From the NCBI RefSeq assembly GCF_003790525.1, contig NZ_CP033635.1: a DNA stretch of 64,000 bases; one strand, given 5' to 3'. The translations under genes were made by a program, and so were the position numbers. Source of the stretch: Escherichia coli. Lineage in GTDB: Bacteria; Pseudomonadota; Gammaproteobacteria; Enterobacterales; Enterobacteriaceae. The notes below the pieces were generated by a model that was given only the letters and a program-made list of their open reading frames with translations, was not told the DNA's origin and made no database searches. Numbering within the stretch: position 1 is the stretch's first letter; every line of letters begins with the position of its first letter. This document shows, piece after piece, positions 5,277 through 62,589 of the stretch.

Positions 5277-7280
5277 TCAGGCACCTTTCACTCCCAGCAC
5301 CTTATGCGCTTTTGCCACAATATTCTCGGCGGTAAAGCCAAAGAACGGGAACAGCTTATCCGCCGGAGCAGATTCCCCGTAACCCGTCATCCCGACAATT
5401 GCCCCTTTCAGACCAACATACTTGTACCAGTAATCGGCGATGCCTGCTTCCACCGCTACGCGAGCCGCAACGTTAGAAGGCAACACCGACTCCCGATATT
5501 CCTCATCCTGGGCGTCGAAAATATCGGTCGAGGGCAGGGAAACTACGCGTACATTGCGACCTTCTCCCGCTAATTTCTCTGCCGCTTGCAGGGTGATTTC
5601 CATCTCTGAACCGGTGGCAATCAAAATAATATCTGGCTTACCGCCGCTGTCTTTCAACACATAACCACCACGAGCAATCTCTTTAACCTGATCCGGCGTA
5701 CGTTCCACCTGGGCCAGATTCTGCCTGGAGAGGATCAGTGCCGTCGGTCCGTTGTGGCGCTCAACCGCCAGCTTCCAGCCCACCGCTGCTTCCACCTGAT
5801 CGCACGGTCGCCAGGTGCTGAAATTTGGCGTTAAGCGCAGACTGGCCAGTTGCTCAACAGCCTGGTGCGTAGGACCATCTTCGCCCAGGCCAATTGAGTC
5901 GTGGGTATAAACCATAATCTGCCGCGCTTTCATCAGTGCCGCCATCCGCGCGGCGTTACGGGCGTATTCAACAAACATCAGGAACGTCGCGGTATACGGC
6001 ACAAAGCCGCCGTGGTGCGCAATGCCGTTGGCGATAGCGGTCATGCCAAATTCACGCACCCCGTAGTGAATGTAGTTGCCCGCCGGATCTTCCTTCAGCG
6101 AAACAGAACCTTTCCAGATGGTCAGGTTGCTGGGAGCCAGATCCGCCGAACCGCCGAGCAGCTCCGGTAGCATAGGCCCGTAAGCGTTAAGCGTATTTTG
6201 CGAAGCCTTACGGGTAGCGATTTTCGCCGGATTCGCCTGCAACTCATTGATATATTTCTGAGTCGTTTTCTCCCAGTCCTTCGGTAAACCACCGCTCATC
6301 CGACGGGTAAACTCTTCTGCCAGTTGCGGATGAGCCTTTTTATAGGCGGCAAACTTCTCATTCCAGCTCTGCTGCGCTTTTTCGCCTTTTTCGCGGGCAT
6401 CCCAGGCGTGATAAATCTCTTTAGGGATCTCAAATGGCGGATGGTGCCAGCCCAGTTTTTGCCGTGCCAGCGCCACTTCTTCTTCCCCCAGTGGTGCGCC
6501 GTGCGCCTCTTCCTTACCTGCTTTATTCGGCGAACCAAAGCCAATCACCGTACGGCAGATAATCAGCGACGGCTTATCTTTCACGCTTTGCGCTTCAAGG
6601 ATCGCTTCCTTCACCGCCTGCGGATCGTGGCCGTCGATCTCGTGGATCACATGCCAGTGATAGGCTTCAAAACGTTTTGCTGTATCGTCGGTAAACCAGC
6701 CTTCGGTTTCACCGTCGATGGAAATACCGTTGTGATCGTAAAAACCAATCAGCTTGCCCAGTCCCAGCGTGCCCGCCAGCGAACAGACTTCGTGGGAAAT
6801 ACCTTCCATCAGGCAGCCGTCGCCCATAAACACATAGGTGAAGTGATCGACAATTTCATGATCTGGCTGGTTAAACTGCGCCGCCAGCGTACGCTCTGCT
6901 ATCGCCAGCCCGACGGCGTTCGCCAAACCTTGTCCAAGTGGACCGGTGGTGGTTTCAACACCAGGCGTATAGCCGATTTCCGGGTGACCAGGGGTTTTCG
7001 AATGCAACTGACGAAAGTTCTTCAGTTCTTCCAGCGGCAGGTCGTAACCGGTCAGATGCAGCAAACTGTAGAGCAGCATCGACGCGTGACCGTTGGAAAG
7101 AATAAAGCGGTCGCGATCATACCAGGTTGGGTCGGTAGGATTATGTTTAAGAAAATCGTTCCACAGCACTTCGGCAATATCAGCCATGCCCATCGGCGCG
7201 CCGGGATGACCAGAATTGGCTTTTTGTACCGCATCCATACTGAGTGCGCGAATCGCATTGGCAAGGTCTTTTCGGGACAT
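5277..7280 (-). CDS. tktB: Transketolase 2
   Basis: ORF trimmed to ATG at 7278-7280 ([27 protein letters not shown]); immediately downstream of talA. Confidence 0.92.
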
Positions 7281-7299
7281 ATAACACTCCGTGGCTGGT

Positions 7300-8250
7300 T
7301 TATAGTTTGGCGGCAAGAAGATCTTCCAGTTTGCGTTGATCAACGGCGAACAGACGAATGCCTTCAGACAGTTTTTCTACCGCCATCGCATCCTGATTGT
7401 GCTCCCAACGGAACTCCGCTTCGCTCATGGGAGCTGGGCGTGGGAACGTCTGAGAAGGTGGGATTAATTTACGTACCACTGGCGAAACTTTTTCCTGCAG
7501 CTCCTTTAGCAAATTCGGTGCGATAGTCAGTCGATCGCAGCCGGTTAAGGCGAGGATTTGTTCGGTGCGACGGAAACTCGCGCCCATCACAATGGTTTCA
7601 TAGTGGTGTTGCTTATAGTAGTCGTAGATATTGCGTACTGATTTAACGCCTGGATCTTCTTCCACCACATACGGGTCCATCGGCTTGCGTGCCTGATACC
7701 AGTCATAAATACGCCCGACAAACGGCGAAATCAGAAATACGCCTGCTTCTGCACAGGCCCGCGCCTGTGCAAAAGAAAACAGCAGCGTCAGGTTGCAGTT
7801 AATACCTTCTTTTTCCAGCTCTTCTGCCGCGCGAATTCCTTCCCAGGTTGAAGCCAGCTTGATCAAAATGCGTGATTTCTCAACGCCTTGTTGCTGATAC
7901 AAGTCCACCAGATGGCGGGCCTTTTCAATACTCTTTTCTTTATCAAAAGAGAGGCGTGCATCAACTTCTGTTGACACGCGACCGGGTACGATTTTGAGAA
8001 TTTCAGCACCGAAATTGACCGCCAGTTTGTCACACGCTGCGACCACCTGTTGTTCCTGGGTTTTGCCATTTTTTTTACCCCAGGCGATAGCATCGTCTAT
8101 TAAATGCTCATATTGTGATAATCCGGCAGCCTTGAGTAACAGCGAAGGATTGGTGGTGGCATCCTGGGGATGATAATGGCGAATGGACTCAATATCGCCG
8201 CTGTCTGCCACGACAGTGGTGAACTGTTTGATGCCGTCTAACTCGTTCAT
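7300..8250 (-). CDS. talA: Transaldolase A
   Basis: 316-aa ORF; transaldolase sequence; forms talA-tktB pair. Confidence 0.92.
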
Positions 8251-8538
8251 AGGAAATACTCCTTGAAAAGTAAAGTGTTAGATGAGTGCGTTAATTCACA
8301 CTTCTGAGAAATTTCGCTAAACGCATCAAAAAAGCATAGCAGACAGGCATGGTATTGCTGGATTAAGCAGGTAACATCAGTGTTATAGGATTATTACCAA
8401 AACATTATATTAATGGTGAGAGTTTGGACTTGCTCAAAGTCTGTAGACTCCGGCAAGGTAATAATGTGCGCCACGTTGTGGGCAGGGGCTGTTGCCCACA
8501 CACTTTATTTGTGAACGTTACGTGAAAGGAACAACCAA

Positions 8539-10818
8539 ATGGATGACCAGTTAAAACAAAGTGCACTTGATTTCCATGAATTTCCAGTTCCAGGGAAAAT
8601 CCAGGTTTCTCCAACCAAGCCTCTGGCAACGCAGCGCGATCTGGCGCTGGCCTACTCACCAGGCGTTGCCGCACCTTGTCTTGAAATCGAAAAAGACCCG
8701 TTAAAAGCCTACAAATATACCGCGCGTGGTAACCTGGTGGCGGTGATCTCTAACGGTACGGCGGTGCTGGGGTTAGGCAACATTGGCGCGCTGGCAGGCA
8801 AACCGGTGATGGAAGGCAAGGGCGTTCTGTTTAAGAAATTCGCCGGGATTGATGTATTTGACATTGAAGTTGATGAACTCGACCCGGACAAATTTATTGA
8901 AGTCGTCGCCGCGCTTGAACCGACCTTCGGCGGCATCAACCTCGAAGACATTAAAGCGCCAGAATGTTTCTATATTGAACAGAAACTGCGCGAGCGGATG
9001 AATATTCCAGTATTCCACGACGATCAGCACGGCACGGCAATTATCAGCACTGCCGCCATCCTCAACGGATTGCGCGTGGTGGAGAAAAACATCTCCGACG
9101 TGCGGATGGTGGTTTCCGGCGCGGGTGCAGCAGCAATTGCCTGTATGAACCTGCTGGTGGCGCTGGGGCTGCAAAAACATAACATCGTGGTTTGTGATTC
9201 AAAAGGCGTTATCTATCAGGGCCGTGAGCCAAATATGGCGGAAACCAAAGCCGCATATGCGGTGGTGGATGACGGCAAACGTACCCTCGATGATGTGATT
9301 GAAGGTGCGGATATTTTCCTCGGCTGTTCCGGCCCGAAAGTGCTGACCCAGGAAATGGTGAAGAAAATGGCTCGGGCACCAATGATCCTGGCGCTGGCGA
9401 ATCCGGAACCGGAAATTCTGCCGCCGCTGGCGAAAGAAGTGCGTCCGGATGCCATCATCTGTACCGGCCGTTCCGACTACCCGAACCAGGTGAACAACGT
9501 CCTTTGCTTCCCGTTTATCTTCCGTGGCGCGCTGGACGTTGGCGCAACCGCCATCAACGAAGAGATGAAACTGGCGGCAGTACGCGCGATTGCAGAACTG
9601 GCCCATGCGGAACAGAGTGAAGTGGTGGCTTCAGCGTATGGCGATCAGGATCTGAGCTTTGGTCCGGAATACATCATTCCAAAACCGTTTGATCCGCGCT
9701 TGATCGTTAAGATCGCTCCTGCGGTGGCGAAAGCGGCGATGGAGTCGGGCGTGGCGACGCGTCCGATTGCTGATTTCGACGTCTACATCGACAAGCTGAC
9801 GGAGTTCGTTTACAAAACCAACCTGTTTATGAAGCCGATTTTCTCCCAGGCTCGCAAAGCGCCGAAGCGCGTAGTTCTGCCGGAAGGGGAAGAGGCGCGC
9901 GTTCTGCATGCCACTCAGGAATTGGTAACGCTGGGACTGGCGAAACCGATTCTTATTGGTCGTCCGAACGTGATCGAAATGCGCATTCAGAAACTGGGCT
10001 TGCAGATCAAGGCGGGCGTTGATTTTGAGATCGTCAATAACGAATCCGATCCGCGCTTTAAAGAGTACTGGACCGAATACTTCCAGATCATGAAGCGTCG
10101 CGGTGTCACTCAGGAGCAGGCGCAGCGTGCGCTGATCAGTAACCCGACAGTGATCGGCGCGATCATGGTTCAGCGTGGCGAAGCCGATGCAATGATTTGC
10201 GGTACGGTGGGCGATTATCATGAACACTTTAGCGTGGTGAAAAATGTCTTTGGTTATCGCGATGGCGTTCACACCGCAGGTGCCATGAACGCGCTGCTGT
10301 TGCCGAGTGGTAACACCTTTATTGCCGATACCTACGTCAATGATGAGCCTGATGCAGAAGAGCTGGCGGAGATCACCTTGATGGCGGCAGAAACTGTTCG
10401 TCGTTTTGGTATTGAACCGCGTGTGGCTCTGTTGTCGCACTCCAACTTTGGTTCTTCTGACTGCCCGTCGTCGAGCAAAATGCGTCAGGCGCTGGAACTG
10501 GTCAGGGAACGTGCGCCAGAACTGATGATTGATGGTGAAATGCACGGCGATGCAGCGCTGGTGGAAGCGATTCGCAACGACCGTATGCCGGACAGCCCTT
10601 TGAAAGGTTCCGCTAATATTCTGGTGATGCCGAACATGGAAGCTGCCCGCATTAGTTACAACTTACTGCGCGTTTCCAGCTCGGAAGGTGTGACTGTCGG
10701 TCCGGTGCTGATGGGCGTGGCGAAGCCGGTTCACGTGTTAACGCCGATCGCATCGGTACGTCGTATCGTCAACATGGTGGCGCTGGCCGTGGTTGAAGCG
10801 CAAACCCAACCGCTGTAA
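8539..10818 (+). CDS. maeB: NADP-dependent malic enzyme (malic enzyme domain plus PTA-like C-terminal domain)
   Basis: 759-aa ORF; N-terminal malic enzyme, C-terminal phosphotransacetylase-like domain. Confidence 0.92.
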
Positions 10819-10835
10819 TTCTTTTTTAACTCTCA

Positions 10836-10863
10836 CGCTTACCCTGAATATTCAGGGTAAGCG
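10836..10863. terminator. Perfect 28-nt palindrome downstream of maeB (putative terminator/insulator before eut promoter)
   Basis: cgcttaccctgaatattcagggtaagcg is a perfect inverted repeat; only a short T-run follows. Confidence 0.45.
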
Positions 10864-10879
10864 GTTTAGCTGCAATATA

Positions 10880-11110
10880 TTAGTAAAGTTTATTACTGAG
10901 TTTGCGAATAATAAAAAAAACAGTATATAAAATATCTCGATATTATTTTATTTATATTCATGCGTTGCATATGAAAGTTTATGCACCACAGCAAATATCT
11001 CTCCATTCTTAGTGATCTACCTCACCTTTTAAACGCGCTTGCCGAATTTTGTTATTTACTCTGACGAAATATTGTCACGATACACGAAAGTTTTTCACAG
11101 GCGGCGACTC
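10880..11110 (+). promoter_or_regulatory. AT-rich control region upstream of eutS (eut operon promoter region)
   Basis: Strongly AT-rich 230 bp immediately upstream of first eut gene; exact promoter elements not resolved. Confidence 0.35.
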
Positions 11111-11446
11111 ATGGATAAAGAACGCATCATTCAGGAATTTGTGCCCGGTAAACAGGTCACACTGGCGCATCTCATCGCGCATCCCGGCGAGGAACTGGCG
11201 AAGAAAATCGGCGTTCCGGATGCGGGCGCAATTGGCATTATGACGCTAACTCCCGGAGAAACGGCGATGATCGCCGGTGATTTAGCGCTGAAAGCTGCCG
11301 ATGTGCATATCGGTTTTCTCGACCGTTTTAGCGGCGCGCTGGTGATTTATGGCTCGGTGGGTGCAGTAGAAGAAGCGTTATCACAAACCGTCAGTGGTTT
11401 AGGTCGCTTATTAAATTATACGCTTTGTGAAATGACCAAAAGTTAA
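11111..11446 (+). CDS. eutS: Ethanolamine utilisation microcompartment shell protein EutS
   Basis: ORF trimmed to ATG 11111 ([21 protein letters not shown]); BMC-domain protein; first gene of eut cluster. Confidence 0.9.
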
Positions 11447-11458
11447 TACGAGGCATTC

Positions 11459-11938
11459 ATGAAACGAATTGCGTTTGTGGGTACCGTCGGGGCAGGAAAA
11501 ACAACGTTATTTAATGCGTTGCAGGGGAATTATACCCTCGCCAGAAAAACACAGGCCGTGGAATTTAATGATAAGGGCGATATTGATACGCCGGGTGAAT
11601 ATTTTAGCCATCCCCGCTGGTATCACGCCTTAATTACCACGCTACAGGATGTGGACATGCTGATCTATGTCCACGGCGCGAATGACCCGGAAAGTCGGTT
11701 GCCTGCCGGGTTGCTGGATATTGGCGTCAGCAAACGGCAAATCGCCGTCATCAGTAAAACGGACATGCCAGATGCTGACGTCGCCGCAACGCGAAAGTTA
11801 TTGCTTGAGACGGGCTTCGAAGAGCCGATTTTCGAGCTAAACAGCCACGACCCGCAAAGCGTGCAGCAACTGGTGGATTATCTGGCATCTCTCACCAAAC
11901 AGGAGGAAGCAGGTGAAAAAACTCATCACAGCGAATGA
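11459..11938 (+). CDS. eutP: EutP, P-loop GTPase/acetate kinase-like protein
   Basis: 159-aa ORF with Walker A GTVGAGKTT. Confidence 0.9.
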   Translation: MKRIAFVGTVGAGKTTLFNALQGNYTLARKTQAVEFNDKGDIDTPGEYFSHPRWYHALITTLQDVDMLIYVHGANDPESRLPAGLLDIGVSKRQIAVISKTDMPDADVAATRKLLLETGFEEPIFELNSHDPQSVQQLVDYLASLTKQEEAGEKTHHSE

Positions 11939-53382: not shown

Positions 53383-54309
53383 ATGAATTATTCTTTAAAA
53401 CAATTAAAGGTTTTCGTCACAGTAGCGCAGGAGAAAAGTTTTAGTCGTGCAGGAGAGCGTATCGGCCTGAGCCAGTCGGCAGTGAGTCACAGTGTGAAGG
53501 AGCTGGAAAATCATACTGGTGTTCGCCTGCTGGACAGAACCACGCGTGAAGTGGTGCTTACAGATGCAGGGCAGCAGTTGGCTTTGCGTCTTGAGCGACT
53601 GCTGGATGAACTTAACAGCACGTTGCGCGATACCGGGCGTATGGGGCAACAACTGAGCGGAAAAGTTCGGGTCGCTGCCAGCCAGACCATTTCCGCGCAT
53701 CTTATTCCGCAATGCATTGCTGAAAGCCATCGCCGCTATCCAGATATTCAGTTTGTCCTGCACGATCGTCCGCAGCAGTGGGTGATGGAAAGTATTCGCC
53801 AGGGAGATGTCGATTTTGGCATCGTCATCGATCCAGGCCCAGTGAGCGATCTGCAATGTGAAGCGATTCTTTCCGAGCCTTTCTTCTTGCTTTGCCATCG
53901 CGATAGCGCTTTGGCCGCGGAAGATTATGTCCCCTGGCAGGCATTACAGGGAGCGAAATTGGTGTTGCAGGATTACGCGTCAGGCAGCCGACCGCTGATT
54001 GACGCAGCTCTGGCGCGCAATGGTATTCAGGCGAATATTGTGCAGGAGATTGGACATCCGGCGACGCTGTTCCCGATGGTAGCCGCAGGCATCGGCATCA
54101 GTATTCTTCCCGCACTGGCGCTACCATTGCCTGAAGGTAGCCCGCTGGTGGTAAAGCGCATTACGCCGGTGGTGGAACGCCAGTTGATGCTGGTGCGCAG
54201 GAAGAACCGTTCACTTTCCACCGCCGCACAAGCGTTATGGGACGTGGTACGAGGCCAGGGCCGTGCGCTAATGGCTGGGCGGGAAGGGGATCCGCTGTAT
54301 CAGATATAG
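53383..54309 (+). CDS. yfeR: LysR-family transcriptional regulator
   Basis: 308-aa ORF with N-terminal LysR HTH ([34 protein letters not shown]); divergent from yfeH. Confidence 0.85.
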
Positions 54310-54320
54310 AGCTATTCATA

Positions 54321-54339
54321 CTGCCGGGAGCCCCGGCAG
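54321..54339. terminator. Hairpin between convergent yfeR and yfeN
   Basis: ctgccggg agcc ccggcag inverted repeat. Confidence 0.45.
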
Positions 54340-54346
54340 TAATCAA

Positions 54347-55111
54347 TCAGAAATTAAATTTGATGGAGTAGATTATTGCATCCTGGTAAAAATCTTCGCC
54401 CAGTTTGTCATCCGCATAACGATACTGAATCCCTGTGGTGATGTGTGAAGTTGCATTCCACCAAAGTGCGACGGCACCGTTCAGACCTTCTTTGCCGCCA
54501 TTACTTGCCGCGTAGGTGGCATCACGATCAAACTCGTACTCGTTCCAGTTGGTGAGGGTGAATTTCTCACTGCCCAGCATAAAGCTGTAACCTGCAACCC
54601 AACCGGCGACATAACCGTTAACGCCGGTATAATAGGTTTGGTCTGTATAGCGTTTTGCAAAGAACGGTTTGAACCACCAACCGCTGCCGGTGAAATTGTA
54701 GCCGATCCCGTAAAGGAACATATCGTCATGGAAATTCACACGATTCGCAGAACCGTAGGTGCCATACGCATGCAAGTAGAGATTAAATCCGGTGTCACCC
54801 AGGTAAATACGGTTGGTATTTTTAAATGTGTAACGCTGCTCGCTACCCGGTTTATCATGACGATTATTATAAAAGTTTTCCCAGTCGAAGAACCCGTACA
54901 TTTCTCCCCAACTAAAGTTAGCGCCGCCTTCCAGTTCCAGATATCCAAAATCATCTTTGTGTGATTTGGTCGACGATTTCTCAGTGGTTCTGCTAGTCCA
55001 GTCAAGATAATGAATACCTATATCAGCAAAACCGCCTTTAAATTCTGCATGGGATACTGCTGGTATCGCCAATACAGAAGAGAGTGTCAGAGTAAAAAGA
55101 TGTTTTTTCAT
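54347..55111 (-). CDS. yfeN: Outer-membrane beta-barrel protein, Tsx-like nucleoside channel family
   Basis: 254-aa ORF with signal peptide, aromatic-rich sequence ending ...YSIKFNF (C-terminal Phe typical of OM barrels). Confidence 0.8.
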   Translation of the reverse strand: MKKHLFTLTLSSVLAIPAVSHAEFKGGFADIGIHYLDWTSRTTEKSSTKSHKDDFGYLELEGGANFSWGEMYGFFDWENFYNNRHDKPGSEQRYTFKNTNRIYLGDTGFNLYLHAYGTYGSANRVNFHDDMFLYGIGYNFTGSGWWFKPFFAKRYTDQTYYTGVNGYVAGWVAGYSFMLGSEKFTLTNWNEYEFDRDATYAASNGGKEGLNGAVALWWNATSHITTGIQYRYADDKLGEDFYQDAIIYSIKFNF

Positions 55112-55359
55112 AGCATAATTCCCTATGCTGATCGTTATTAGTTGATTGCTTAATAAAAAGGTTGATTAAAAGCGGCATATTGTTAATGCAAGGGAAAGGA
55201 GAGTACCAATACAGTTTTTTCAGTCTATTAATAGTGAAAAAATATAAATATATCGATATCGAATAACTATCGGATACATGAAAAAAGTGTATTGGTATGA
55301 GTTAGGGCAATCTCGTTATAAAAAGGCGTTAGATTCCACCCTACAAAAAAAGGATATAT

Positions 55360-56193
55360 ATGTATCAGGCTCAGTTTTCTCATAACCCACTGTATTGCGT
55401 AGATATTATCAAGACTTATAAACCTGATTTCACGCCACGAGTGGCCTTTATTTTAGGTTCCGGGCTGGGCGCGCTGGCCGATCAGATTGAGAACGCGGTC
55501 GCAATTTCCTACGAAAAGCTGCCTGGGTTCCCGGTAAGTACCGTACACGGTCATGCGGGTGAGCTGGTGCTGGGTTATCTCCAGGGGGTGCCAGTGGCGT
55601 GCATGAAAGGTCGCGGACATTTCTACGAAGGTCGTGGGATGACCATCATGACGGATGCAATCCGTACCTTTAAGTTGCTGGGCTGCGAGTTGCTGTTCTG
55701 CACCAATGCGGCTGGCTCACTGCGTCCTGAAGTGGGGGCCGGCAGTCTGGTCGCATTGAAAGATCACATCAACACCATGCCGGGAACGCCGATGGTGGGT
55801 CTTAATGATGAACGTTTTGGTGAGCGCTTCTTCTCGCTGGCAAATACCTACGATGCGGAATACCGCGCACTGTTACAAAAAGTGGCGAAAGAAGAGGGGT
55901 TCCCTCTGACGGAGGGCGTGTTCGTCTCGTATCCGGGTCCGAATTTCGAGACTGCGGCGGAAATTCGCATGATGCAAATTATTGGTGGGGATGTTGTTGG
56001 TATGTCTGTGGTGCCTGAGGTTATTTCTGCTCGCCATTGCGAACTTAAAGTCGTTGCGGTCTCTGCGATTACCAACATGGCGGAAGGTCTGAGTGACGTG
56101 AAGCTTTCTCATGCCCAAACGCTGGCAGCAGCGGAACTCTCAAAGCAAAACTTTATTAATCTTATTTGCGGCTTTCTGCGCAAAATTGCCTGA
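55360..56193 (+). CDS. xapA: Xanthosine phosphorylase (PNP-II)
   Basis: 277-aa ORF, purine nucleoside phosphorylase family. Confidence 0.9.
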   Translation: MYQAQFSHNPLYCVDIIKTYKPDFTPRVAFILGSGLGALADQIENAVAISYEKLPGFPVSTVHGHAGELVLGYLQGVPVACMKGRGHFYEGRGMTIMTDAIRTFKLLGCELLFCTNAAGSLRPEVGAGSLVALKDHINTMPGTPMVGLNDERFGERFFSLANTYDAEYRALLQKVAKEEGFPLTEGVFVSYPGPNFETAAEIRMMQIIGGDVVGMSVVPEVISARHCELKVVAVSAITNMAEGLSDVKLSHAQTLAAAELSKQNFINLICGFLRKIA

Positions 56194-56253
56194 GTAAAAC
56201 AACAATAAACGGCCTCACTGAGTGAGGCCATATGATGCGACAAGGAAACGATT

Positions 56254-57510
56254 ATGAGCATCGCTTTGCGCTTAAAGGTAATGTCCTTTTTGCAATATTT
56301 TATCTGGGGGAGCTGGCTGGTTACCCTCGGTTCTTACATGATTAATACCCTTCATTTCACCGGCGCTAATGTTGGCATGGTTTACAGTTCCAAAGGGATC
56401 GCCGCGATTATTATGCCTGGTATAATGGGGATCATCGCAGACAAATGGCTGCGTGCAGAACGTGCATACATGCTGTGTCACCTGGTGTGTGCAGGCGTAC
56501 TTTTTTATGCGGCATCCGTAACTGATCCGGATATGATGTTTTGGGTGATGTTAGTCAATGCGATGGCGTTTATGCCGACTATTGCGTTATCGAACAGCGT
56601 CTCTTATTCCTGTCTTGCCCAGGCAGGGCTTGACCCGGTGACCGCTTTCCCGCCCATTCGCGTTTTTGGTACTGTGGGGTTCATTGTCGCCATGTGGGCA
56701 GTAAGCCTGCTGCATCTGGAATTGAGTAGTCTGCAACTGTATATCGCGTCCGGTGCGTCATTGCTGCTGTCGGCTTATGCGCTGACTTTGCCGAAGATTC
56801 CGGTTGCGGAGAAAAAAGCGACTACATCGCTTGCCAGCAAGCTGGGCCTGGATGCCTTCGTGCTGTTTAAAAATCCACGCATGGCTATCTTTTTCCTCTT
56901 CGCCATGATGCTGGGTGCGGTGCTGCAAATTACCAACGTTTTTGGCAACCCGTTCCTGCATGATTTCGCCCGTAATCCTGAGTTTGCTGATAGCTTCGTG
57001 GTGAAATACCCGTCCATTTTACTGTCAGTTTCACAGATGGCTGAAGTCGGTTTCATTCTGACGATACCGTTCTTTTTGAAGCGTTTCGGTATTAAAACCG
57101 TCATGCTGATGAGTATGGTGGCGTGGACGCTGCGCTTTGGCTTCTTTGCCTATGGCGACCCATCACCAACCGGGTTTATTTTGCTGTTGCTGTCGATGAT
57201 TGTTTACGGTTGTGCATTCGATTTCTTCAATATTTCTGGTTCGGTCTTTGTCGAACAGGAAGTTGATTCCAGCATTCGTGCCAGCGCCCAGGGCCTTTTT
57301 ATGACGATGGTAAATGGCGTCGGCGCATGGGTTGGCTCGATTCTGAGCGGTATGGCAGTGGATTACTTCTCGGTGGATGGCGTAAAAGATTGGCATACCA
57401 TTTGGCTGATGTTTGCAGGGTATGCTCTTTTCCTCGCAGTGATATTTTTCTTTGGGTTTAAATATAACCATGACCCTGAAAAGATAACGCATCGTTCAGT
57501 TACACATTAA
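56254..57510 (+). CDS. xapB: Xanthosine permease (MFS nucleoside:H+ symporter)
   Basis: 418-aa polytopic ORF following xapA. Confidence 0.9.
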   Translation: MSIALRLKVMSFLQYFIWGSWLVTLGSYMINTLHFTGANVGMVYSSKGIAAIIMPGIMGIIADKWLRAERAYMLCHLVCAGVLFYAASVTDPDMMFWVMLVNAMAFMPTIALSNSVSYSCLAQAGLDPVTAFPPIRVFGTVGFIVAMWAVSLLHLELSSLQLYIASGASLLLSAYALTLPKIPVAEKKATTSLASKLGLDAFVLFKNPRMAIFFLFAMMLGAVLQITNVFGNPFLHDFARNPEFADSFVVKYPSILLSVSQMAEVGFILTIPFFLKRFGIKTVMLMSMVAWTLRFGFFAYGDPSPTGFILLLLSMIVYGCAFDFFNISGSVFVEQEVDSSIRASAQGLFMTMVNGVGAWVGSILSGMAVDYFSVDGVKDWHTIWLMFAGYALFLAVIFFFGFKYNHDPEKITHRSVTH

Positions 57511-57562
57511 AAGGATTCGCAGCTCTGTTCCTTGGGGCTGCTTTTATGATAAAGGTTAATTA

Positions 57563-57721
57563 GTGAAAGATATTTTATTTTCTTCTGGCGTTGGTTTTGG
57601 CATTGGTGCTTTGTTTACAATCGTGCGATTACCTATTCCTGTTCCAAATGTATTGCCGGGTATATTATCCATCGTGTTTATGTATGTCGGATATCTGGTG
57701 GTGAAATACTTTATGCCATGA
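57563..57721 (+). CDS. Candidate small hydrophobic protein (52 aa), unverified
   Basis: GTG-initiated ORF with AAGG 7 nt upstream; encodes (M)KDILFSSGVGFGIGALFTIVRLPIPVPNVLPGILSIVFMYVGYLVVKYFMP; below the ORF-track length cutoff. Confidence 0.3.
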   Translation: MKDILFSSGVGFGIGALFTIVRLPIPVPNVLPGILSIVFMYVGYLVVKYFMP

Positions 57722-57762
57722 TAATTTAATACGATATATTTTTTTATATGGAGCACTTAATT

Positions 57763-58647
57763 ATGGAACGCGTATATAGAACAGATCTTAAGTTGCTCCG
57801 TTATTTTCTTGCCGTAGCGGAAGAGTTGCATTTTGGTCGCGCAGCAGCGCGTTTAAATATGTCTCAGCCTCCGCTCAGTATTCATATTAAAGAGCTGGAA
57901 AATCAACTCGGCACGCAGCTTTTTATTCGCCATTCGCGCAGCGTCGTACTGACACACGCGGGCAAAATCTTGATGGAAGAATCGCGTCGATTGCTGGTGA
58001 ATGCAAATAATGTATTGGCTCGGGTTGAACAAATAGGTCGGGGAGAAGCAGGGCGGATTGAACTCGGGGTTGTGGGAACGGCAATGTGGGGACGGATGCG
58101 CCCGGTTATGCGGCGATTCCTTAGAGAAAATCCTAACGTTGAAGTTCTGTTTCGCGAAAAGATGCCCGCGATGCAAATGGCCTTGCTGGAACGCCGCGAA
58201 CTTGATGCCGGGATCTGGCGAATGGCGACAGAACCACCGACTGGTTTTACCAGCTTACGGTTGCATGAATCGGCGTTTCTGGTGGCGATGCCTGAAGAGC
58301 ATCATCTCTCATCATTTTCCACCGTCCCGCTGGAAGCGCTACGTGACGAGTATTTCGTTACAATGCCGCCCGTGTACACTGACTGGGATTTTTTGCAGCG
58401 AGTTTGCCAGCAGGTGGGATTTTCACCGGTTGTTATTCGCGAAGTTAATGAACCGCAAACGGTACTCGCCATGGTCAGTATGGGTATTGGTATCACATTG
58501 ATAGCGGACAGCTACGCGCAGATGAACTGGCCCGGTGTCATATTCCGTCCGCTCAAAGAACGCATCCCGGCAGACTTATATATTGTTTATGAAACGCAGC
58601 AGGTGACGCCCGCGCTGGTTAAACTGCTGGCGGCGTTGGCGCAGTAG
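57763..58647 (+). CDS. xapR: LysR-family activator of xapAB
   Basis: ORF trimmed to ATG 57763 (MERVYRTDLKLLRYFLAVAEELHFGRAAARLNMSQPPLS). Confidence 0.9.
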   Translation: MERVYRTDLKLLRYFLAVAEELHFGRAAARLNMSQPPLSIHIKELENQLGTQLFIRHSRSVVLTHAGKILMEESRRLLVNANNVLARVEQIGRGEAGRIELGVVGTAMWGRMRPVMRRFLRENPNVEVLFREKMPAMQMALLERRELDAGIWRMATEPPTGFTSLRLHESAFLVAMPEEHHLSSFSTVPLEALRDEYFVTMPPVYTDWDFLQRVCQQVGFSPVVIREVNEPQTVLAMVSMGIGITLIADSYAQMNWPGVIFRPLKERIPADLYIVYETQQVTPALVKLLAALAQ

Positions 58648-58673
58648 ATGAGAGGCACGGGAACTGCCGGACA

Positions 58674-58706
58674 TAGTTGGTCTGATAAGCGAAGCGCATC
58701 AGGCAA
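58674..58706. repeat. REP element
   Basis: ggtctgataagcgaagcgcatcaggc matches REP pattern. Confidence 0.55.
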
Positions 58707-58757: not shown

Positions 58758-58833
58758 TGGTGGGTCGTGCAGGATTCGAACCTGCGACCAATTGATTAAA
58801 AGTCAACTGCTCTACCAACTGAGCTAACGACCC
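58758..58833 (-). tRNA. lysV: tRNA-Lys (anticodon UUU)
   Basis: Reverse complement is a 76-nt cloverleaf ending CCA with anticodon loop CUUUUAA. Confidence 0.95.
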
Positions 58834-60880: not shown

Positions 60881-60949
60881 TATCCGGTGCGCCGTAAAAC
60901 CCCGTCCTTCAGGGCGGGGATATAAGGCGCGGTTTTCCACCTGACCAGG

Positions 60950-61363
60950 TGTTTGCTGTTGTTCAATGTATTGGCGGATGACGGATATTGGCGCACCTCC
61001 GCAGCTACTGGCAAAATAGCCAGGACTCCACAAAACGCCTTTGTAGTAATACCTGACTGCAATATCTGGTCGATCTCGTCGCAGTCACCTACCCGATACG
61101 CCTTTGAGGCTGTTTACCAGACTGGATATCGCCAGTTTGGGAGGATAGTTAATTAACAAATGGACGTGATCTGGTTCGCCATCCATTTCAACCAGTTCAG
61201 CTTCAAAATCAGCACATACATTTGAAAAGTAAGTGCGTAGTTTTTCTGTCGCGTCATGGTCAAAAATCTGGCGTCGGTATTTGGGACAAAGACCAGGTGA
61301 ACATGCATCAGGAAAACACAATGCCTTCCACGCCGGATATCGGTTTCTTTTTTCACAGACCAA
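60950..61363 (-). pseudogene. tnpA: IS200/IS605 tnpA (HuH Y1 transposase), frameshifted
   Basis: N-terminal part in frame of 61085-61363 (…CPKYRRQIF…HVHLLINYPP…LKGVSGR*); C-terminal part (LWSPGYFASSCGGAPISVIRQYIEQQ) in a different frame at about 60950-61033. Confidence 0.65.
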
Positions 61364-61378
61364 AATATAATTTGACCT

Positions 61379-62589
61379 GTGAAACGACTACAGGCATTTA
61401 AATTCCAGTTAAGACCCGGTGGTCAACAGGAGCATGAAATGAGGCGCTTCGCAGGCGCATGTCGTTTCGTTTTCAATCGTGCTCTGGCGCTTCAGAATGA
61501 GAATCATGAGGCCGGTAATAAATACATCCCTTACGGGAAAATGGCTTCCTGGCTGGTTGAGTGGAAAAACGCCACTGGAACGCAATGGCTTAAAGATTCT
61601 CCCTCACAGCCATTGCAACAGTCACTGAAAGACCTTGAGCGGGCTTACAAAAACTTCTTCCAGAAGCGGGCTGCTTTTCCCCGATTCAAAAAGCGGGGAC
61701 AGAATGATGCATTCCGCTACCCGCAGGGCGTTAAGCTCGATCAGGAAAACAGCCGTATTTTTCTGCCGAAACTGGGCTGGATGCGCTACCGGAACAGCCG
61801 TCAGGTCACGGGTGTTGTGAAAAATGTCACGGTCAGCCAGTCCTGCGGTAAGTGGTACATCAGTATTCAGACAGAAAGTGAAGTATCAACTCCGGTTCAC
61901 CCTTCAGCATCAATGGTCGGGCTGGATGCCGGCATGGCTGAACTTGCCACGCTGTCAGATGGGGCACAGTCTTTGAGCCTGTAAACAGTTTTCAGAAAAA
62001 CCAGAAGACGCTGGCGAGACTTCAGCGACAGTTAAGCCGCAAGGTCAAATTCAGCAATAACTGGAAGAAGCAGAAACGCAAAATACAGCGACTGCATTCC
62101 CGTATCGCAAATATCCGCAGGGACTACCTTCACAAAGTCACAACGACCGTCAGCAAAAACCACGCAATGATAGTCATTGAGGATTTGAAGGTCAGCAACA
62201 TGTCAAAGTCAGCAGCGGGTACGGTCAGCCAGCCGGGGCGCAATGTCCGGGCAAAATCAGGTTTAAACCGTTCGATACTGAATCAGGGCTGGTATGAAAT
62301 GCGCCGCCAGCTTGAGTACAAGCAGCTCTGGCGTGGCGGTCAGGTGCTTGCTGTTCCGCCAGCGTACACAAGCCAGCGTTGCGCGTGCTGTGGTCATACA
62401 GCGAAAGAAAATCGCCTGTCACAAAGTAAATTCAGATTCCAGGTATGTGGATATACAGCGAACGCCGATGTAAACGGCGCTCGTAACATTTTAGCGGCGG
62501 GGCACGCCGTTCTTGCCTGTGGAGAGATGGTGCAGTCAGGCCGCCCGTTGAAGCAGGAACCCACCGAAATGATTCAGGCGACAGCCTGA
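61379..62589 (+). pseudogene. tnpB: IS605-family tnpB (RuvC-like RNA-guided nuclease homologue), single frameshift
   Basis: Frame 1: 61379-61984 (…VGLDAGMAELATLSDGAQSLSL*); continues in -1 frame from 61981 to 62589 (VNSFQKNQKTLARLQRQL…IEDLKV…CACCGHT…[10 protein letters not shown]); shift at agc-ctg-taa, consistent with a 1-bp deletion. Confidence 0.7.

What the first reader, a model, noticed from the sequence alone, without database searches (positions are those of the whole stretch)
54347..58647. Tsx-like outer-membrane channel gene yfeN sits divergently next to the xanthosine operon
yfeN encodes a signal-peptide protein with the aromatic-rich, C-terminal-Phe character of Tsx-family nucleoside channels. 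It is transcribed divergently from xapA (phosphorylase), xapB (inner-membrane permease) and xapR, sharing a 248-bp AT-rich control region (55112-55359). The adjacency suggests yfeN could supply the outer-membrane step of xanthosine or nucleoside uptake, giving a complete OM channel / IM permease / catabolic enzyme / regulator module.
Basis: inference. Interest (0 to 1): 0.3.

Follow-up and report, generated by a model that had tools for sequence, protein, structure and literature searches.

The report
Nucleoside porin gene beside xanthosine operon
An outer-membrane channel gene of the nucleoside-porin family (yfeN) lies back-to-back with E. coli's xanthosine-utilisation genes, is gained and lost with them as one 4.4-kb block, and carries a mirror copy of their promoter's regulator-binding motif; it therefore probably supplies the outer-membrane entry step, which is a sensible idea that is already partly annotated and has not been tested experimentally.

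Summary
The window is E. coli SMS-3-5. yfeN (54347-55111, minus strand) is divergent from xapA-xapB-(xapX)-xapR across a 248-bp spacer that is 69% AT.

- **Block inheritance.** yfeN and xapABXR form one 4,393-bp presence/absence block. About 24% of complete E. coli genomes lack it.
- **Conserved linkage.** The linkage recurs in Enterobacteriaceae and Budviciaceae. OmpK-type genes also sit in nupC/deo nucleoside operons in Shewanella and Halomonadaceae, and beside deo genes in Endozoicomonas.
- **Shared operator.** The spacer holds two mirror-image LysR-type operator and promoter layouts, one facing xapA and one facing yfeN. In other genera the same three-part motif occurs only upstream of xapA and yfeN.

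Limits: no experiment links YfeN to xanthosine, and OmpK orthologues in Yersinia, Morganellaceae and Vibrionaceae lie in housekeeping context. The family assignment and the adjacency are already annotated. The predicted XapR control of yfeN is the only new element. Interest is modest.

The parts
54311..58703 (.). 4,393-bp accessory block (yfeN, spacer, xapA, xapB, xapX, xapR). It is bounded by the yfeR stop codon on one side and by the region just upstream of tRNA-Lys on the other.
   Evidence: Alignment to a block-less E. coli strain (L083) breaks at 54310 and resumes at 58704. About 396 bp carrying a FlxA-like gene replaces the block there. The region is present in 4107 of 5426 complete E. 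coli genomes, and yfeN alone in 4089.
54347..55111 (-). yfeN: 254-aa precursor of a predicted 12-stranded outer-membrane beta-barrel channel. It belongs to the Tsx family, OmpK branch.
55046..55111 (-). Signal-peptide-like first 22 codons of yfeN (MKKHLFTLTLSSVLAIPAVSHA).
   Evidence: Sequence inspection. These residues form a low-confidence helix outside the barrel in the model, and the barrel starts at residue 24. No signal-peptide predictor was run.
54320..54341 (.). GC-rich 10-bp-stem hairpin (ACTGCCGGG...CCCGGCAGT) in the 37-bp gap between the convergent genes yfeR and yfeN. It looks like a terminator but has no U-run.
   Evidence: RNA fold of 54285-54375, minus strand: -22.9 kcal/mol, z -2.2. 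The consensus terminator scan did not call it.
55112..55359 (.). Shared 248-bp divergent control region, 69% AT.
   Evidence: Conserved blocks appear in alignments across genera and between the K-12 and SMS-3-5 alleles.
55179..55184 (-). Inferred -10 element of a yfeN promoter (AACAAT on the minus strand), 20 nt after the left repeat arm.
   Evidence: Inference from position. An A/T-rich TAATAAT-like box is conserved at the same spacing upstream of yfeN in other genera. The stringent sigma-70 scan did not call it.
55204..55222 (-). Left arm of a 19-nt inverted repeat (TGAAAAAAcTGTATTGGTA on the minus strand). It is the proposed activation-site half of a LysR-type operator facing yfeN, about -37 from the inferred yfeN start.
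   Evidence: Repeat I1 is 95% complementary. The 10-mer TGTATTGGTA occurs exactly only at the two arms in 64 kb. TATTGG lies 100-185 nt upstream of yfeN in 14 of 14 xap-linked, Budviciaceae or Rahnella loci, against 3 of 66 controls.
55227..55249 (-). Degenerate dyad facing yfeN (ATTTATAT-N7-CTATTAAT on the minus strand, containing T-N11-A). It is the proposed recognition site, centred about -66 from the inferred yfeN start.
   Evidence: Better-conserved versions lie upstream of yfeN in C. sedlakii, Phytobacter, Entomohabitans, Pragia, Limnobaculum and Budvicia.
55252..55274 (+). Dyad facing xapA (ATCGATAT-N7-CTATCGGA, containing T-N11-A). It is the proposed XapR recognition site, centred about -66 from the inferred xapA start.
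   Evidence: Phylogenetic footprint of ten xapA promoters gives the consensus ATCGATAT-N7-ATATCGAT-N15-TATTGG-N19-TATAAA. The literature reports two XapR sites, one overlapping -35 and one upstream (PMC7205307).
55279..55297 (+). Right arm of the inverted repeat (TGAAAAAAGTGTATTGGTA). It is the proposed XapR activation site overlapping the xapA -35 region.
55317..55322 (+). Inferred xapA -10 element (TATAAA).
   Evidence: Invariant in eight genera and part of the xapA promoter consensus.
55360..56193 (+). xapA, xanthosine phosphorylase.
   Evidence: TIGR01699 XAPA equivalog, 532 bits.
56254..57510 (+). xapB, xanthosine/H+ symporter (inner membrane).
   Evidence: PF03825, 629 bits; TIGR00889, 749 bits.
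57563..57721 (+). xapX, a 52-aa small hydrophobic protein with a GTG start.
   Evidence: RefSeq annotates it as a DUF1427 family protein. TIGR03510 XapX, 64 bits against a 27.8-bit cut-off.
57763..58647 (+). xapR, LysR-type activator.
   Evidence: NF007439 equivalog, 533 bits.
58758..58833 (-). tRNA-Lys, the first gene of the Lys-Val-Val-Val tRNA cluster that flanks the block.

Best explanation
YfeN is the E. coli orthologue of the OmpK branch of the Tsx family. It is a monomeric 12-stranded outer-membrane beta-barrel that lets nucleosides cross the outer membrane. At this locus it is one of five genes (yfeN | xapA-xapB-xapX | xapR) in a 4.4-kb accessory block next to a tRNA cluster.

The 248-bp spacer holds two back-to-back LysR-type operator and promoter layouts in mirror symmetry. 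Each consists of a dyad at about -66, a TATTGG box at about -37, and a -10 element. One layout faces xapA and the other faces yfeN.

The most likely working model is that xanthosine-bound XapR activates both promoters. The outer-membrane channel would then be made together with the inner-membrane symporter XapB and the phosphorylase XapA, giving a complete route from the medium to ribose-1-phosphate plus xanthine.

What is shown:
- family and fold;
- block inheritance;
- conserved linkage to nucleoside genes;
- the motif architecture and its restriction to xapA and yfeN upstream regions.

What is inferred:
- the transcription start points;
- XapR binding on the yfeN side;
- the substrate.

From my own knowledge, not tested here: xanthosine is largely anionic at neutral pH (pKa about 5.7). 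That could make a dedicated channel useful at low concentrations.
For: **Family and fold**
- PF03502, 153 bits, covering positions 2-244 of the 244-position profile. Tsx matches the same model at 292 bits.
- AlphaFold2 model: pLDDT 89.5, 12 strands.
- Full-length homologues named OmpK share 42-63% identity.

**The gene is functional**
- dN/dS is 0.034 despite dS of 0.56 against K-12.

**Module behaviour**
- The block 54311-58703 is present or absent as a unit.
- Divergence between the E. coli alleles peaks over yfeN, the spacer and xapA.

**Linkage elsewhere**
- yfeN-xapABR adjacency occurs in five Enterobacteriaceae genera.
- In Budviciaceae the layout is deoC-xapB-xapA <> deoB-yfeN.
- In Rahnella, yfeN is followed on the same strand by a xapB-like permease gene.
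- Shewanella has nupC-ompK-deoCABD. Halomonadaceae have deoR <> ompK-nupC-deoCABD-cdd. Endozoicomonas has two tandem Channel_Tsx genes beside deoD-deoB-deoC.
- V. cholerae ompK is CytR-repressed together with udp, cdd and nupC (PMC4581735).

**Operator**
- A 19-nt inverted repeat lies in the spacer, and its 10-mer core is unique to the two arms in 64 kb.
- Ten xapA promoters share the layout dyad-N15-TATTGG-N19-TATAAA.
- In 3.1 Mb of strand-sequence, the full three-part motif occurs only upstream of xapA (10 loci) and yfeN (8 loci).
- Where xapA and yfeN are 2 kb apart (Pragia, Limnobaculum), or separated by extra genes (L004), yfeN keeps its own copy.
- An unbiased metagenome scan with the motif found a XapR-like LysR gene abutting 34 of 120 sites, and it was divergent in all 34.
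- The literature describes two XapR sites at the xapAB promoter, one overlapping -35 and one upstream (PMC7205307).
Against: - **No experimental link.** No experiment ties yfeN to xanthosine or XapR in any paper I could search.
- **No known phenotypes.** The yfeN S121P change had no effect on cellobiose growth. The Keio yfeN mutant showed no phage phenotype.
- **Weak yfeN-side dyad in E. coli.** The arms carry 2 and 3 mismatches to the consensus. However, the xapA-side right arm also carries 3 mismatches.
- **Rigid matrix test.** An 84-column matrix built from xapA promoters scores the yfeN side above background only in the E. coli group.
- **No promoter call.** The stringent sigma-70 scan called no yfeN promoter.
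- **Motif without nearby xap genes.** Budvicia aquatica keeps the motif upstream of yfeN with no xap genes within 10 kb.
- **Housekeeping context elsewhere.** Most orthologues, in Yersinia, Morganellaceae, Plesiomonas and Photobacterium, lie between ampG and cyoA or panE.
- **Operator type not exclusive to XapR.** The metagenome hits belong to other LysR regulators.
- **HusR study.** The study lists yfeN as a predicted target but reports induction only for xapA.
- **Pore residues.** Conservation of Tsx pore residues was not examined.
Confidence: 0.5

Rival explanations
1. YfeN is a nucleoside (or other small-solute) channel that was simply carried along with the xap genes by horizontal transfer. 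It is transcribed independently of XapR, for example constitutively at a low level, in stationary phase, or under another regulator. On this view the yfeN-proximal repeat arm is only a distal XapR site serving xapA.
For: - The literature describes two XapR sites serving xapAB and does not mention yfeN.
- HusR binds this spacer in K-12.
- The E. coli yfeN-side dyad is degenerate.
- The operator type is shared by many LysR regulators.
- OmpK orthologues elsewhere function away from any xap genes.
Against: - yfeN keeps its own full motif copy, correctly oriented and 100-140 nt upstream of the start codon, where it is not adjacent to xapA (Pragia, Limnobaculum, L004). In those genomes xapA has a complete operator of its own.
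- The motif elements facing yfeN are conserved across genera whose spacers are otherwise about 50% identical.
Confidence: 0.32
2. YfeN is essentially silent or cryptic in E. coli and matters mainly as a surface structure, such as a phage or colicin receptor, rather than as a transporter.
For: - Vibrio OmpK is best known as a phage receptor (papers listed).
- No yfeN phenotype has been reported.
- The gene has low GC (44.6%) and an AT-rich upstream region, which is typical of silenced horizontally acquired DNA.
- About a quarter of E. coli genomes lack the gene.
Against: - Strong purifying selection (dN/dS 0.034 at dS 0.56) argues against a dispensable, decaying gene.
- No BASEL phage depended on yfeN.
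- Repeated embedding of OmpK-type genes in nucleoside operons, and CytR control in Vibrio, point to transport.
Confidence: 0.12
3. The adjacency of yfeN and the xap operon is a chance neighbourhood with no functional meaning.
For: Only the lack of experimental data.
Against: - Presence and absence coincide as a single 4.4-kb block.
- The linkage is conserved in two families with different flanking genes.
- The promoter motif is shared.
Confidence: 0.03

Closest known systems
Tsx, the nucleoside-specific outer-membrane channel of E. coli (PDB 1TLY/1TLW/1TLZ; Pfam PF03502)
   Same: - Both match the same Pfam family model end to end.
- Both have a signal peptide, are rich in aromatic residues, contain no cysteine, and end in -NF.
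   Different: - Structure-based identity is only about 13%.
- Neither phmmer nor a 34-sequence profile of YfeN homologues finds Tsx in the PDB, even at E<=10.
- hhalign aligns only the first 82 columns.
- The YfeN precursor is 40 residues shorter.
- From general knowledge, tsx is a stand-alone gene under CytR/DeoR/CRP control, whereas yfeN sits in the xap block.
- Conservation of nucleoside-binding residues was not examined.
OmpK of Vibrio and related gamma-proteobacteria
   Same: - Full-length homologues named OmpK in Photobacterium, Shewanella, Halomonas, Endozoicomonas, Yersinia, Proteus and others share 42-63% identity.
- RefSeq itself names the window's protein 'outer membrane protein OmpK'.
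- V. cholerae ompK belongs to the CytR nucleoside regulon.
   Different: - The common position of the orthologue is ampG-ompK-(cyoA/panE/yajQ). In Escherichia and its relatives the gene lies in the xap block instead.
- Phage-receptor roles known for Vibrio OmpK were not seen for yfeN.
ompK-nupC-deoCABD nucleoside operons of Shewanella and Halomonadaceae
   Same: The logic is the same: an outer-membrane channel, an inner-membrane permease, catabolic enzymes and a regulator encoded together.
   Different: - The permease family differs (NupC/CNT rather than XapB/NHS-MFS).
- The enzymes differ (DeoD/DeoA rather than XapA).
- The regulator differs (DeoR rather than LysR-type XapR).
- In those operons the channel is co-directional with the other genes rather than divergent.
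Substrate-specific porins encoded within catabolic regulons (LamB in mal, ScrY, BglH, NanC in nan, KdgM, ChiP)
   Same: The proposed working principle is the same: an inducible outer-membrane channel is made together with the cognate inner-membrane transporter and enzymes. NanC and KdgM are also 12-stranded barrels and rank among the structural neighbours.
   Different: These are unrelated or only distantly related families. Co-regulation of those systems is established experimentally (general knowledge), whereas for yfeN it is only predicted.

Membership tests
Tsx family (Pfam PF03502 Channel_Tsx; TC 1.B.10) | Significant full-length match to the family profile. | tested here: met
   153.1 bits against a 27.2-bit cut-off, residues 34-254 on profile positions 2-244 of 244. 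E. coli Tsx scores 292 bits on the same model.
Tsx family (Pfam PF03502 Channel_Tsx; TC 1.B.10) | 12-stranded antiparallel beta-barrel with Tsx as the nearest solved structure. | tested here: met
Tsx family (Pfam PF03502 Channel_Tsx; TC 1.B.10) | Outer-membrane targeting signals: a cleavable signal peptide and a C-terminal aromatic beta-signal ending in Phe. | tested here: met
   By inspection only: MKKHLFTLTLSSVLAIPAVSHA|EF... and ...IYSIKFNF. The model places residues 1-22 outside the barrel. No dedicated predictor was run.
Tsx family (Pfam PF03502 Channel_Tsx; TC 1.B.10) | Conservation of the nucleoside-binding pore residues defined in the Tsx crystal structures. | not tested
   The structure paper was not held. 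Model coordinates could not be inspected. hhalign covered only 82 columns.
Tsx family (Pfam PF03502 Channel_Tsx; TC 1.B.10) | Nucleoside-specific channel activity: uptake at low concentration, and conductance blocked by nucleosides. | not testable with these tools
   No experimental report was found.
OmpK branch of the family | Close full-length similarity to proteins annotated as OmpK. | tested here: met
   42-63% identity at 89-100% coverage to OmpK-named proteins from more than ten genera. 46 invariant columns in a 34-sequence alignment.
OmpK branch of the family | Conserved chromosomal position next to ampG. | tested here: not met
   The gene lies in ampG-ompK context in Yersinia, Morganellaceae, Plesiomonas and Photobacterium. 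In the window it lies between yfeR and xapA. This concerns synteny, not homology.
XapR (xanthosine) regulon | A XapR-type operator upstream of the gene, in the activating orientation. | tested here: inconclusive
   A mirror-image dyad, TATTGG box and -10 element face yfeN. The three-part motif is restricted to regions upstream of xapA and yfeN in other genera. The motif type is tied to XapR-like LysR genes in metagenomes. In E. coli itself the yfeN-side dyad is degenerate, and published XapR site sequences could not be consulted.
XapR (xanthosine) regulon | Co-occurrence with xapA, xapB and xapR. | tested here: met
   A single 4,393-bp presence/absence block. The region is found in 4107 of 5426 E. 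coli genomes and yfeN alone in 4089.
XapR (xanthosine) regulon | Xanthosine- and XapR-dependent transcription. | not testable with these tools
   No expression data for yfeN with xanthosine were found.
Regulon-embedded substrate-specific porins (LamB, ScrY, BglH, NanC, KdgM, ChiP type) | An outer-membrane channel gene clustered with the cognate permease, enzyme and regulator genes. | tested here: met
   Parallel clusters occur in Shewanella, Halomonadaceae and Endozoicomonas.

The most novel reading that the evidence does not exclude
The xap locus is a self-contained, horizontally mobile five-gene unit that takes xanthosine from the medium to the cytoplasm. YfeN would be a XapR-activated outer-membrane channel tuned to xanthosine, a nucleoside that is largely anionic at neutral pH. 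A single mirror-symmetric pair of LysR operators would fire both divergent promoters. E. coli would then have two specialised nucleoside porins: Tsx for general nucleosides under CytR control, and YfeN for xanthosine under XapR control.
Probability: 0.4. Interest if true: 0.45.

Novelty: new member of a known kind. Interest (0 to 1): 0.33.

Why it matters
yfeN is one of the remaining E. coli K-12 genes with no assigned function. If the prediction holds, three things follow.

- yfeN would gain a function and a regulator.
- The textbook xapABR circuit, which is also used as a model bistable switch (PMC7205307), would gain an outer-membrane component. That component is missing from current models and deletion designs. 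The published xapABR deletion ends exactly at the yfeN start codon and removes the whole shared spacer.
- It would be another example of bacteria packaging an outer-membrane channel with a permease, an enzyme and a regulator as a transferable unit.

The practical value is modest. The family assignment and the adjacency are already in the databases, and the concept of regulon-embedded porins is well established.

Tried and rejected
- **Foldseek against the PDB.** It returned generic porins with poor TM-scores and was uninformative.
- **hhalign of the YfeN alignment against a single Tsx sequence.** It aligned only 82 columns at 79.6% probability. I did not build a Tsx alignment.
- **A rigid 84-column matrix from xapA promoters.** It separated the yfeN side from background only in the E. 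coli group (15-23 bits against a 99th percentile of -3.2). The yfeN-side spacing is 1 nt shorter, so I replaced this test with a modular motif test.
- **The consensus promoter/terminator scan.** It called neither promoter in the spacer and no terminator.
- **Primary papers.** Seeger 1995, Jorgensen & Dandanell 1999 and Ye & van den Berg 2004 are not held. The supplement of PMC7205307 gives no XapR site sequences.
- **Literature hits for 'yfeN'.** Most are author names or unrelated strings, for example yeast 'Y-fene' strains in PMC5962535. Yersinia 'yfeN' in PMC6867900 is listed among iron-transport genes and is uninformative.
- **YfeR as regulator of yfeN.** I considered this because yfeR is the neighbouring LysR gene. 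I rejected it as the first choice for three reasons. yfeR stays with yfeH in strains that lack the block. The xapA and yfeN operators co-vary within genomes. The metagenomic regulators next to this motif resemble XapR (30-39% identity, up to 61% over partial alignments) more than YfeR (24-31%).
- **Chance adjacency.** Rejected on the block-inheritance evidence.

Full report
**1. What is there**

The 4.3-kb region is 100% identical to E. coli SMS-3-5. RefSeq annotates the neighbourhood as ligA, ypeB, yfeH, yfeR, yfeN (opposite strand), xapA, xapB, a 52-aa DUF1427 gene, xapR, four tRNAs (Lys, Val, Val, Val) and gltX.

- yfeN 54347-55111 (minus strand, 254 aa)
- xapA 55360-56193
- xapB 56254-57510
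- xapR 57748-58647 (RefSeq uses the ATG at 57763)

The spacer 55112-55359 is 248 bp and 69.0% AT, against 47.2% AT for the window. Profile searches confirm each assignment:
- XapA: TIGR01699, 532 bits
- XapB: PF03825, 629 bits
- XapR: NF007439, 533 bits
- YfeN: PF03502 Channel_Tsx, 153 bits (cut-off 27.2), and the NCBIfam equivalog PRK11528, 453 bits

The small gene at 57563-57721 is a XapX-domain protein (TIGR03510, 64 bits). Rfam finds only the four tRNAs.

**2. What YfeN is**

The N-terminus reads as a Sec signal (MKKHLFTLTLSSVLAIPAVSHA|EF). The mature protein is 22.4% aromatic, has no cysteine, and ends ...KFNF. Tsx is 19.5% aromatic and ends ...GYNF.

The relationship to Tsx is remote:
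- phmmer and a family profile of YfeN homologues do not find Tsx in the PDB even at E<=10.
- hhalign against a single Tsx sequence aligns only 82 columns.
- Foldseek does not discriminate among barrels.
- Both proteins nevertheless match the same Pfam model end to end.

Homologues at 42-63% identity are named OmpK in Yersinia, Xenorhabdus, Proteus, Providencia, Morganella, Plesiomonas, Endozoicomonas, Halomonas, Shewanella and Photobacterium. YfeN is therefore the OmpK-branch member of the Tsx family. This is already stated in RefSeq names and in the literature (PMC7797564).

The gene is under strong purifying selection. Against the K-12 allele, dS is 0.56 but dN/dS is 0.034, and the proteins are 96% identical.

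**3. Is the neighbourhood meaningful?**

*Within E. coli.* The whole region is found in 4107 of 5426 complete genomes and yfeN alone in 4089. In the remaining genomes, yfeR is followed by a 113-aa FlxA-like gene and then tRNA-Lys. Alignment places the breakpoints at 54310/54311 and 58703/58704. So yfeN, the spacer, xapA, xapB, xapX and xapR form one 4,393-bp presence/absence block next to a tRNA cluster.

Nucleotide identity between SMS-3-5 and K-12 falls from 98.6% (ligA) and 97.8% (yfeR) to 90.3% (yfeN) and 92.0% (xapA). It then recovers through xapB (94.5%) and xapR (96.5%). Synonymous divergence is about ten times higher at yfeN than at ligA. [quoted passage not shown]

*Across genera.* I scanned one genome per species and mapped neighbours with tblastn.
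- The divergent yfeN-xapA arrangement occurs in Escherichia, Pseudocitrobacter, Citrobacter, Phytobacter and Entomohabitans. In Phytobacter the flanking genes differ.
- In the Budviciaceae Limnobaculum and Pragia the layout is xapR...deoC-xapB-xapA <> deoB-yfeN. This adds phosphopentomutase and deoxyribose-phosphate aldolase genes to the cluster.
- In Rahnella laticis, yfeN is followed 45 bp later on the same strand by a XapB-like nucleoside permease gene (66% identity; TIGR00889, 603 bits).
- An Escherichia lineage (L004) carries an extra nucleoside permease gene and a gene with a nucleoside 2-deoxyribosyltransferase-like domain between xapA and yfeN.

*Further afield.*
- Shewanella has nupC-ompK-deoC-deoA-deoB-deoD.
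- A Halomonadaceae genome has deoR <> ompK-nupC-deoC-deoA-deoB-deoD-cdd.
- Endozoicomonas has two tandem Channel_Tsx genes next to deoD-deoB-deoC.
- V. cholerae ompK is repressed by CytR together with udp, cdd and nupC (PMC4581735).

*Against a universal link.* In 62 loci from Yersinia, Xenorhabdus, Photorhabdus, Proteus, Providencia, Morganella and Moellerella, the orthologue lies in clpP-tig-bolA-yajG-ampG-[ompK]-cyoABCDE. In Plesiomonas and Photobacterium it lies next to ampG.

**4. The control region**

The spacer contains a 19-nt inverted repeat with arms at 55204-55222 and 55279-55297 (TGAAAAAAnTGTATTGGTA, 95% complementary). The 10-mer TGTATTGGTA occurs exactly only at these two places in the 64-kb window.

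Aligning ten xapA promoters from two families gives this consensus:

ATCGATAT-N7-ATATCGAT-N15-TATTGG-N19-TATAAA

The dyad is a perfect 8-bp inverted repeat containing T-N11-A, the general hallmark of LysR-type recognition sites (established knowledge). In the window it is centred at about -66, and the TATTGG box lies at about -37 from the start inferred from the -10 element. This matches the published statement that the xapAB promoter has two XapR sites, one overlapping -35 and one upstream, both needed for full induction (PMC7205307).

The yfeN side is a mirror image on the minus strand:
- TATTGG at 55211-55206
- a -10-like AACAAT at 55184-55179, at the same 20-nt distance from the repeat arm
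- a degenerate dyad, ATTTATAT-N7-CTATTAAT, at 55249-55227

These elements, and little else in the spacer, are conserved between the diverged K-12 and SMS-3-5 alleles and across genera whose spacers are otherwise about 50% identical.

**5. Tests of the operator idea**

- **(a) TATTGG box.** TATTGG lies 60-200 nt upstream of yfeN, in the coding direction, in 14 of 14 loci from the xap-linked, Budviciaceae and Rahnella group. It does so in 3 of 66 control loci, where 0.06 per region is expected. These loci are not phylogenetically independent. I count roughly eight independent lineages on each side.
- **(b) Modular motif.** I searched for a right arm with <=2 mismatches to ATATCGAT, then 14-15 nt, then TATTGG, and scored the left arm afterwards. 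In 3.1 Mb of strand-sequence, left arms with <=3 mismatches occur only upstream of xapA (10 loci, always 15-nt spacing) and upstream of yfeN (8 loci, always 14-nt spacing, including Budvicia). The other 26 partial hits have 4-7 left-arm mismatches.
- **(c) Separated promoters.** Where xapA and yfeN are not adjacent, each keeps its own copy. In Pragia the two promoters lie 2 kb apart. They share 20 of 23 dyad positions and have identical TATTGGTA boxes. In L004 xapA has its own operator, and the inverted pair stays between the extra permease gene and yfeN.
- **(d) Metagenome scan.** In 34 of them a LysR gene related to XapR (30-61% identity) abuts the dyad. It is divergent from the TATTGG side in all 34. 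So the motif is a genuine operator type of this regulator clade, with the target on the TATTGG side. It is not exclusive to XapR, however, and none of those loci encodes XapA, XapB or YfeN.

Weak points:
- In the window's own lineage both right arms carry 3 mismatches. This includes the xapA side, whose K-12 counterpart is the promoter shown experimentally to depend on XapR.
- A rigid matrix scores the yfeN side above background only in the E. coli group.
- The stringent promoter scan calls nothing in the spacer.
- Start sites are inferred, not measured.
- I could not read the papers that mapped the XapR sites.

**6. Mechanism proposed**

YfeN is exported, inserts into the outer membrane as a monomeric 12-strand barrel, and passes nucleosides. 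In this block it is probably switched on by xanthosine-bound XapR from a promoter that mirrors the xapA promoter. Channel, symporter (XapB), phosphorylase (XapA) and the small membrane protein XapX would then appear together.

Family, fold, block inheritance and motif architecture are shown. XapR binding on the yfeN side, xanthosine specificity and physiological need are inferred.

A plausible reason the gene has escaped genetics is that growth tests use millimolar xanthosine, at which general porins suffice (inference). A plausible reason for a dedicated channel is that xanthosine is mostly anionic at neutral pH (my own knowledge, not tested here).

I put 0.5 on the full model and about 0.3 on the variant in which YfeN is a nucleoside channel that travels with xap but is regulated independently. 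The rest goes to a cryptic or receptor-only role and to chance adjacency.

**7. Comparison with what is known, and novelty**

The family assignment and the gene order are already in RefSeq and the literature. Regulon-embedded specific porins are a well-known kind (LamB, ScrY, BglH, NanC, KdgM, ChiP). I found no paper that proposes or tests XapR control of yfeN or a role in xanthosine uptake.

The HusR study lists yfeN only as a possible target of a site in the K-12 spacer. That site, CGGGACAACCTCGCTA, lies between the TATTGG box and the -10 element of xapA. It differs at 5 of 16 positions in SMS-3-5.

The finding is therefore an ordinary, well-annotated locus with a reasonable functional hypothesis. 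This analysis strengthens the hypothesis but does not prove it: YfeN would be a new member of a known kind. Interest is 0.33.

Noticed in passing
window 57563-57721 (+): A fifth gene in the xap cluster: xapX, a 52-aa hydrophobic protein with a GTG start between xapB and xapR (TIGR03510, 64 bits). RefSeq annotates it in SMS-3-5 but not in the K-12 record. Its function is unknown.
   Followed up: partly
window 54311-58703; locus L083 2517-2912: The whole yfeN-xapA-xapB-xapX-xapR block is a presence/absence polymorphism. About 24% of complete E. coli genomes carry a roughly 396-bp segment with a 113-aa FlxA-like gene between yfeR and tRNA-Lys instead.
   Followed up: yes
window 54347-57510 compared with K-12 locus L082: There is deep allelic divergence inside E. 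coli, centred on yfeN and xapA. dS is 0.56 (yfeN), 0.36 (xapA) and 0.26 (xapB), against 0.054 for ligA, and dN/dS is 0.03-0.05. Among complete genomes, yfeN identity to the window is clearly bimodal (>=99% or about 90%). This suggests separate acquisitions or imports by recombination.
   Followed up: partly
locus L003 (Pseudocitrobacter vendiensis) 6469-11728: In this genus YfeN, XapA, XapB and YfeR are 96-97% identical to the window's proteins (XapR 93%), whereas YfeH (87%) and LigA (91%) are less similar. This hints at recent exchange of the block between genera.
   Followed up: no
locus L004 (Escherichia lineage, strain SCPM-O-B-8794) 7277-9745: A variant of the locus carries three extra ORFs between xapA and yfeN: a second nucleoside/H+ symporter gene (62% identical to XapB), a 309-aa ORF with a nucleoside 2-deoxyribosyltransferase-like domain, and an 82-aa ORF. 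The inverted operator pair lies between the extra permease gene and yfeN.
   Followed up: partly
loci L007, L009, L032 (Limnobaculum, Pragia) and L010 (Budvicia): In Budviciaceae, yfeN lies between ModE-like and ModF-like/galE/galT genes. Limnobaculum and Pragia also have xapR, deoC, xapB and xapA divergent from deoB-yfeN. Budvicia aquatica has yfeN with the same promoter motif but no xap or deo genes within 10 kb.
   Followed up: partly
locus L011 (Rahnella laticis) 9700-10000: Upstream of a co-directional yfeN and xapB-like permease gene pair there is a different perfect dyad (TTTATAG-N7-CTATAAA), followed 16 nt later by TATTGG. No LysR gene lies nearby, and the regulator is unknown.
   Followed up: no
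window 54320-54341: A GC-rich hairpin with a 10-bp stem lies in the 37-bp gap between the convergent genes yfeR and yfeN. It lacks a U-run and was not called by the terminator scan.
   Followed up: partly
window 55298-55316 compared with K-12 locus L082: The HusR (YnfL) box reported for the K-12 xapA/yfeN spacer (CGGGACAACCTCGCTA) lies between the TATTGG box and the -10 element of xapA. It differs at 5 of 16 positions in SMS-3-5, so HusR control may be allele-specific.
   Followed up: partly
window about 60947-62589: RefSeq annotates a degraded IS200/IS605 element (frameshifted tnpA and tnpB/InsQ pseudogenes) just beyond gltX in SMS-3-5. K-12 has no such annotation between gltX and yfeD.
   Followed up: no
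loci L086 (Halomonadaceae) and L012-L081 (Yersinia, Morganellaceae and relatives): The ompK orthologue lies close to the cytochrome bo oxidase operon (cyoABCDE) both in Halomonadaceae, with only a deoR gene between them, and in Yersinia and Morganellaceae. This linkage across orders is unexplained.
   Followed up: no
metagenome loci L092-L209: A clade of LysR regulators 30-39% identical to XapR (up to 61% over partial alignments) shares the operator layout dyad(AT..ATAT-N7-ATATYRAT)-N14/15-TATTGG. The regulator's own start codon sits at or inside the outer dyad arm, and the regulator gene is always divergent from the TATTGG side (34 of 34). The target genes were not identified.
   Followed up: partly
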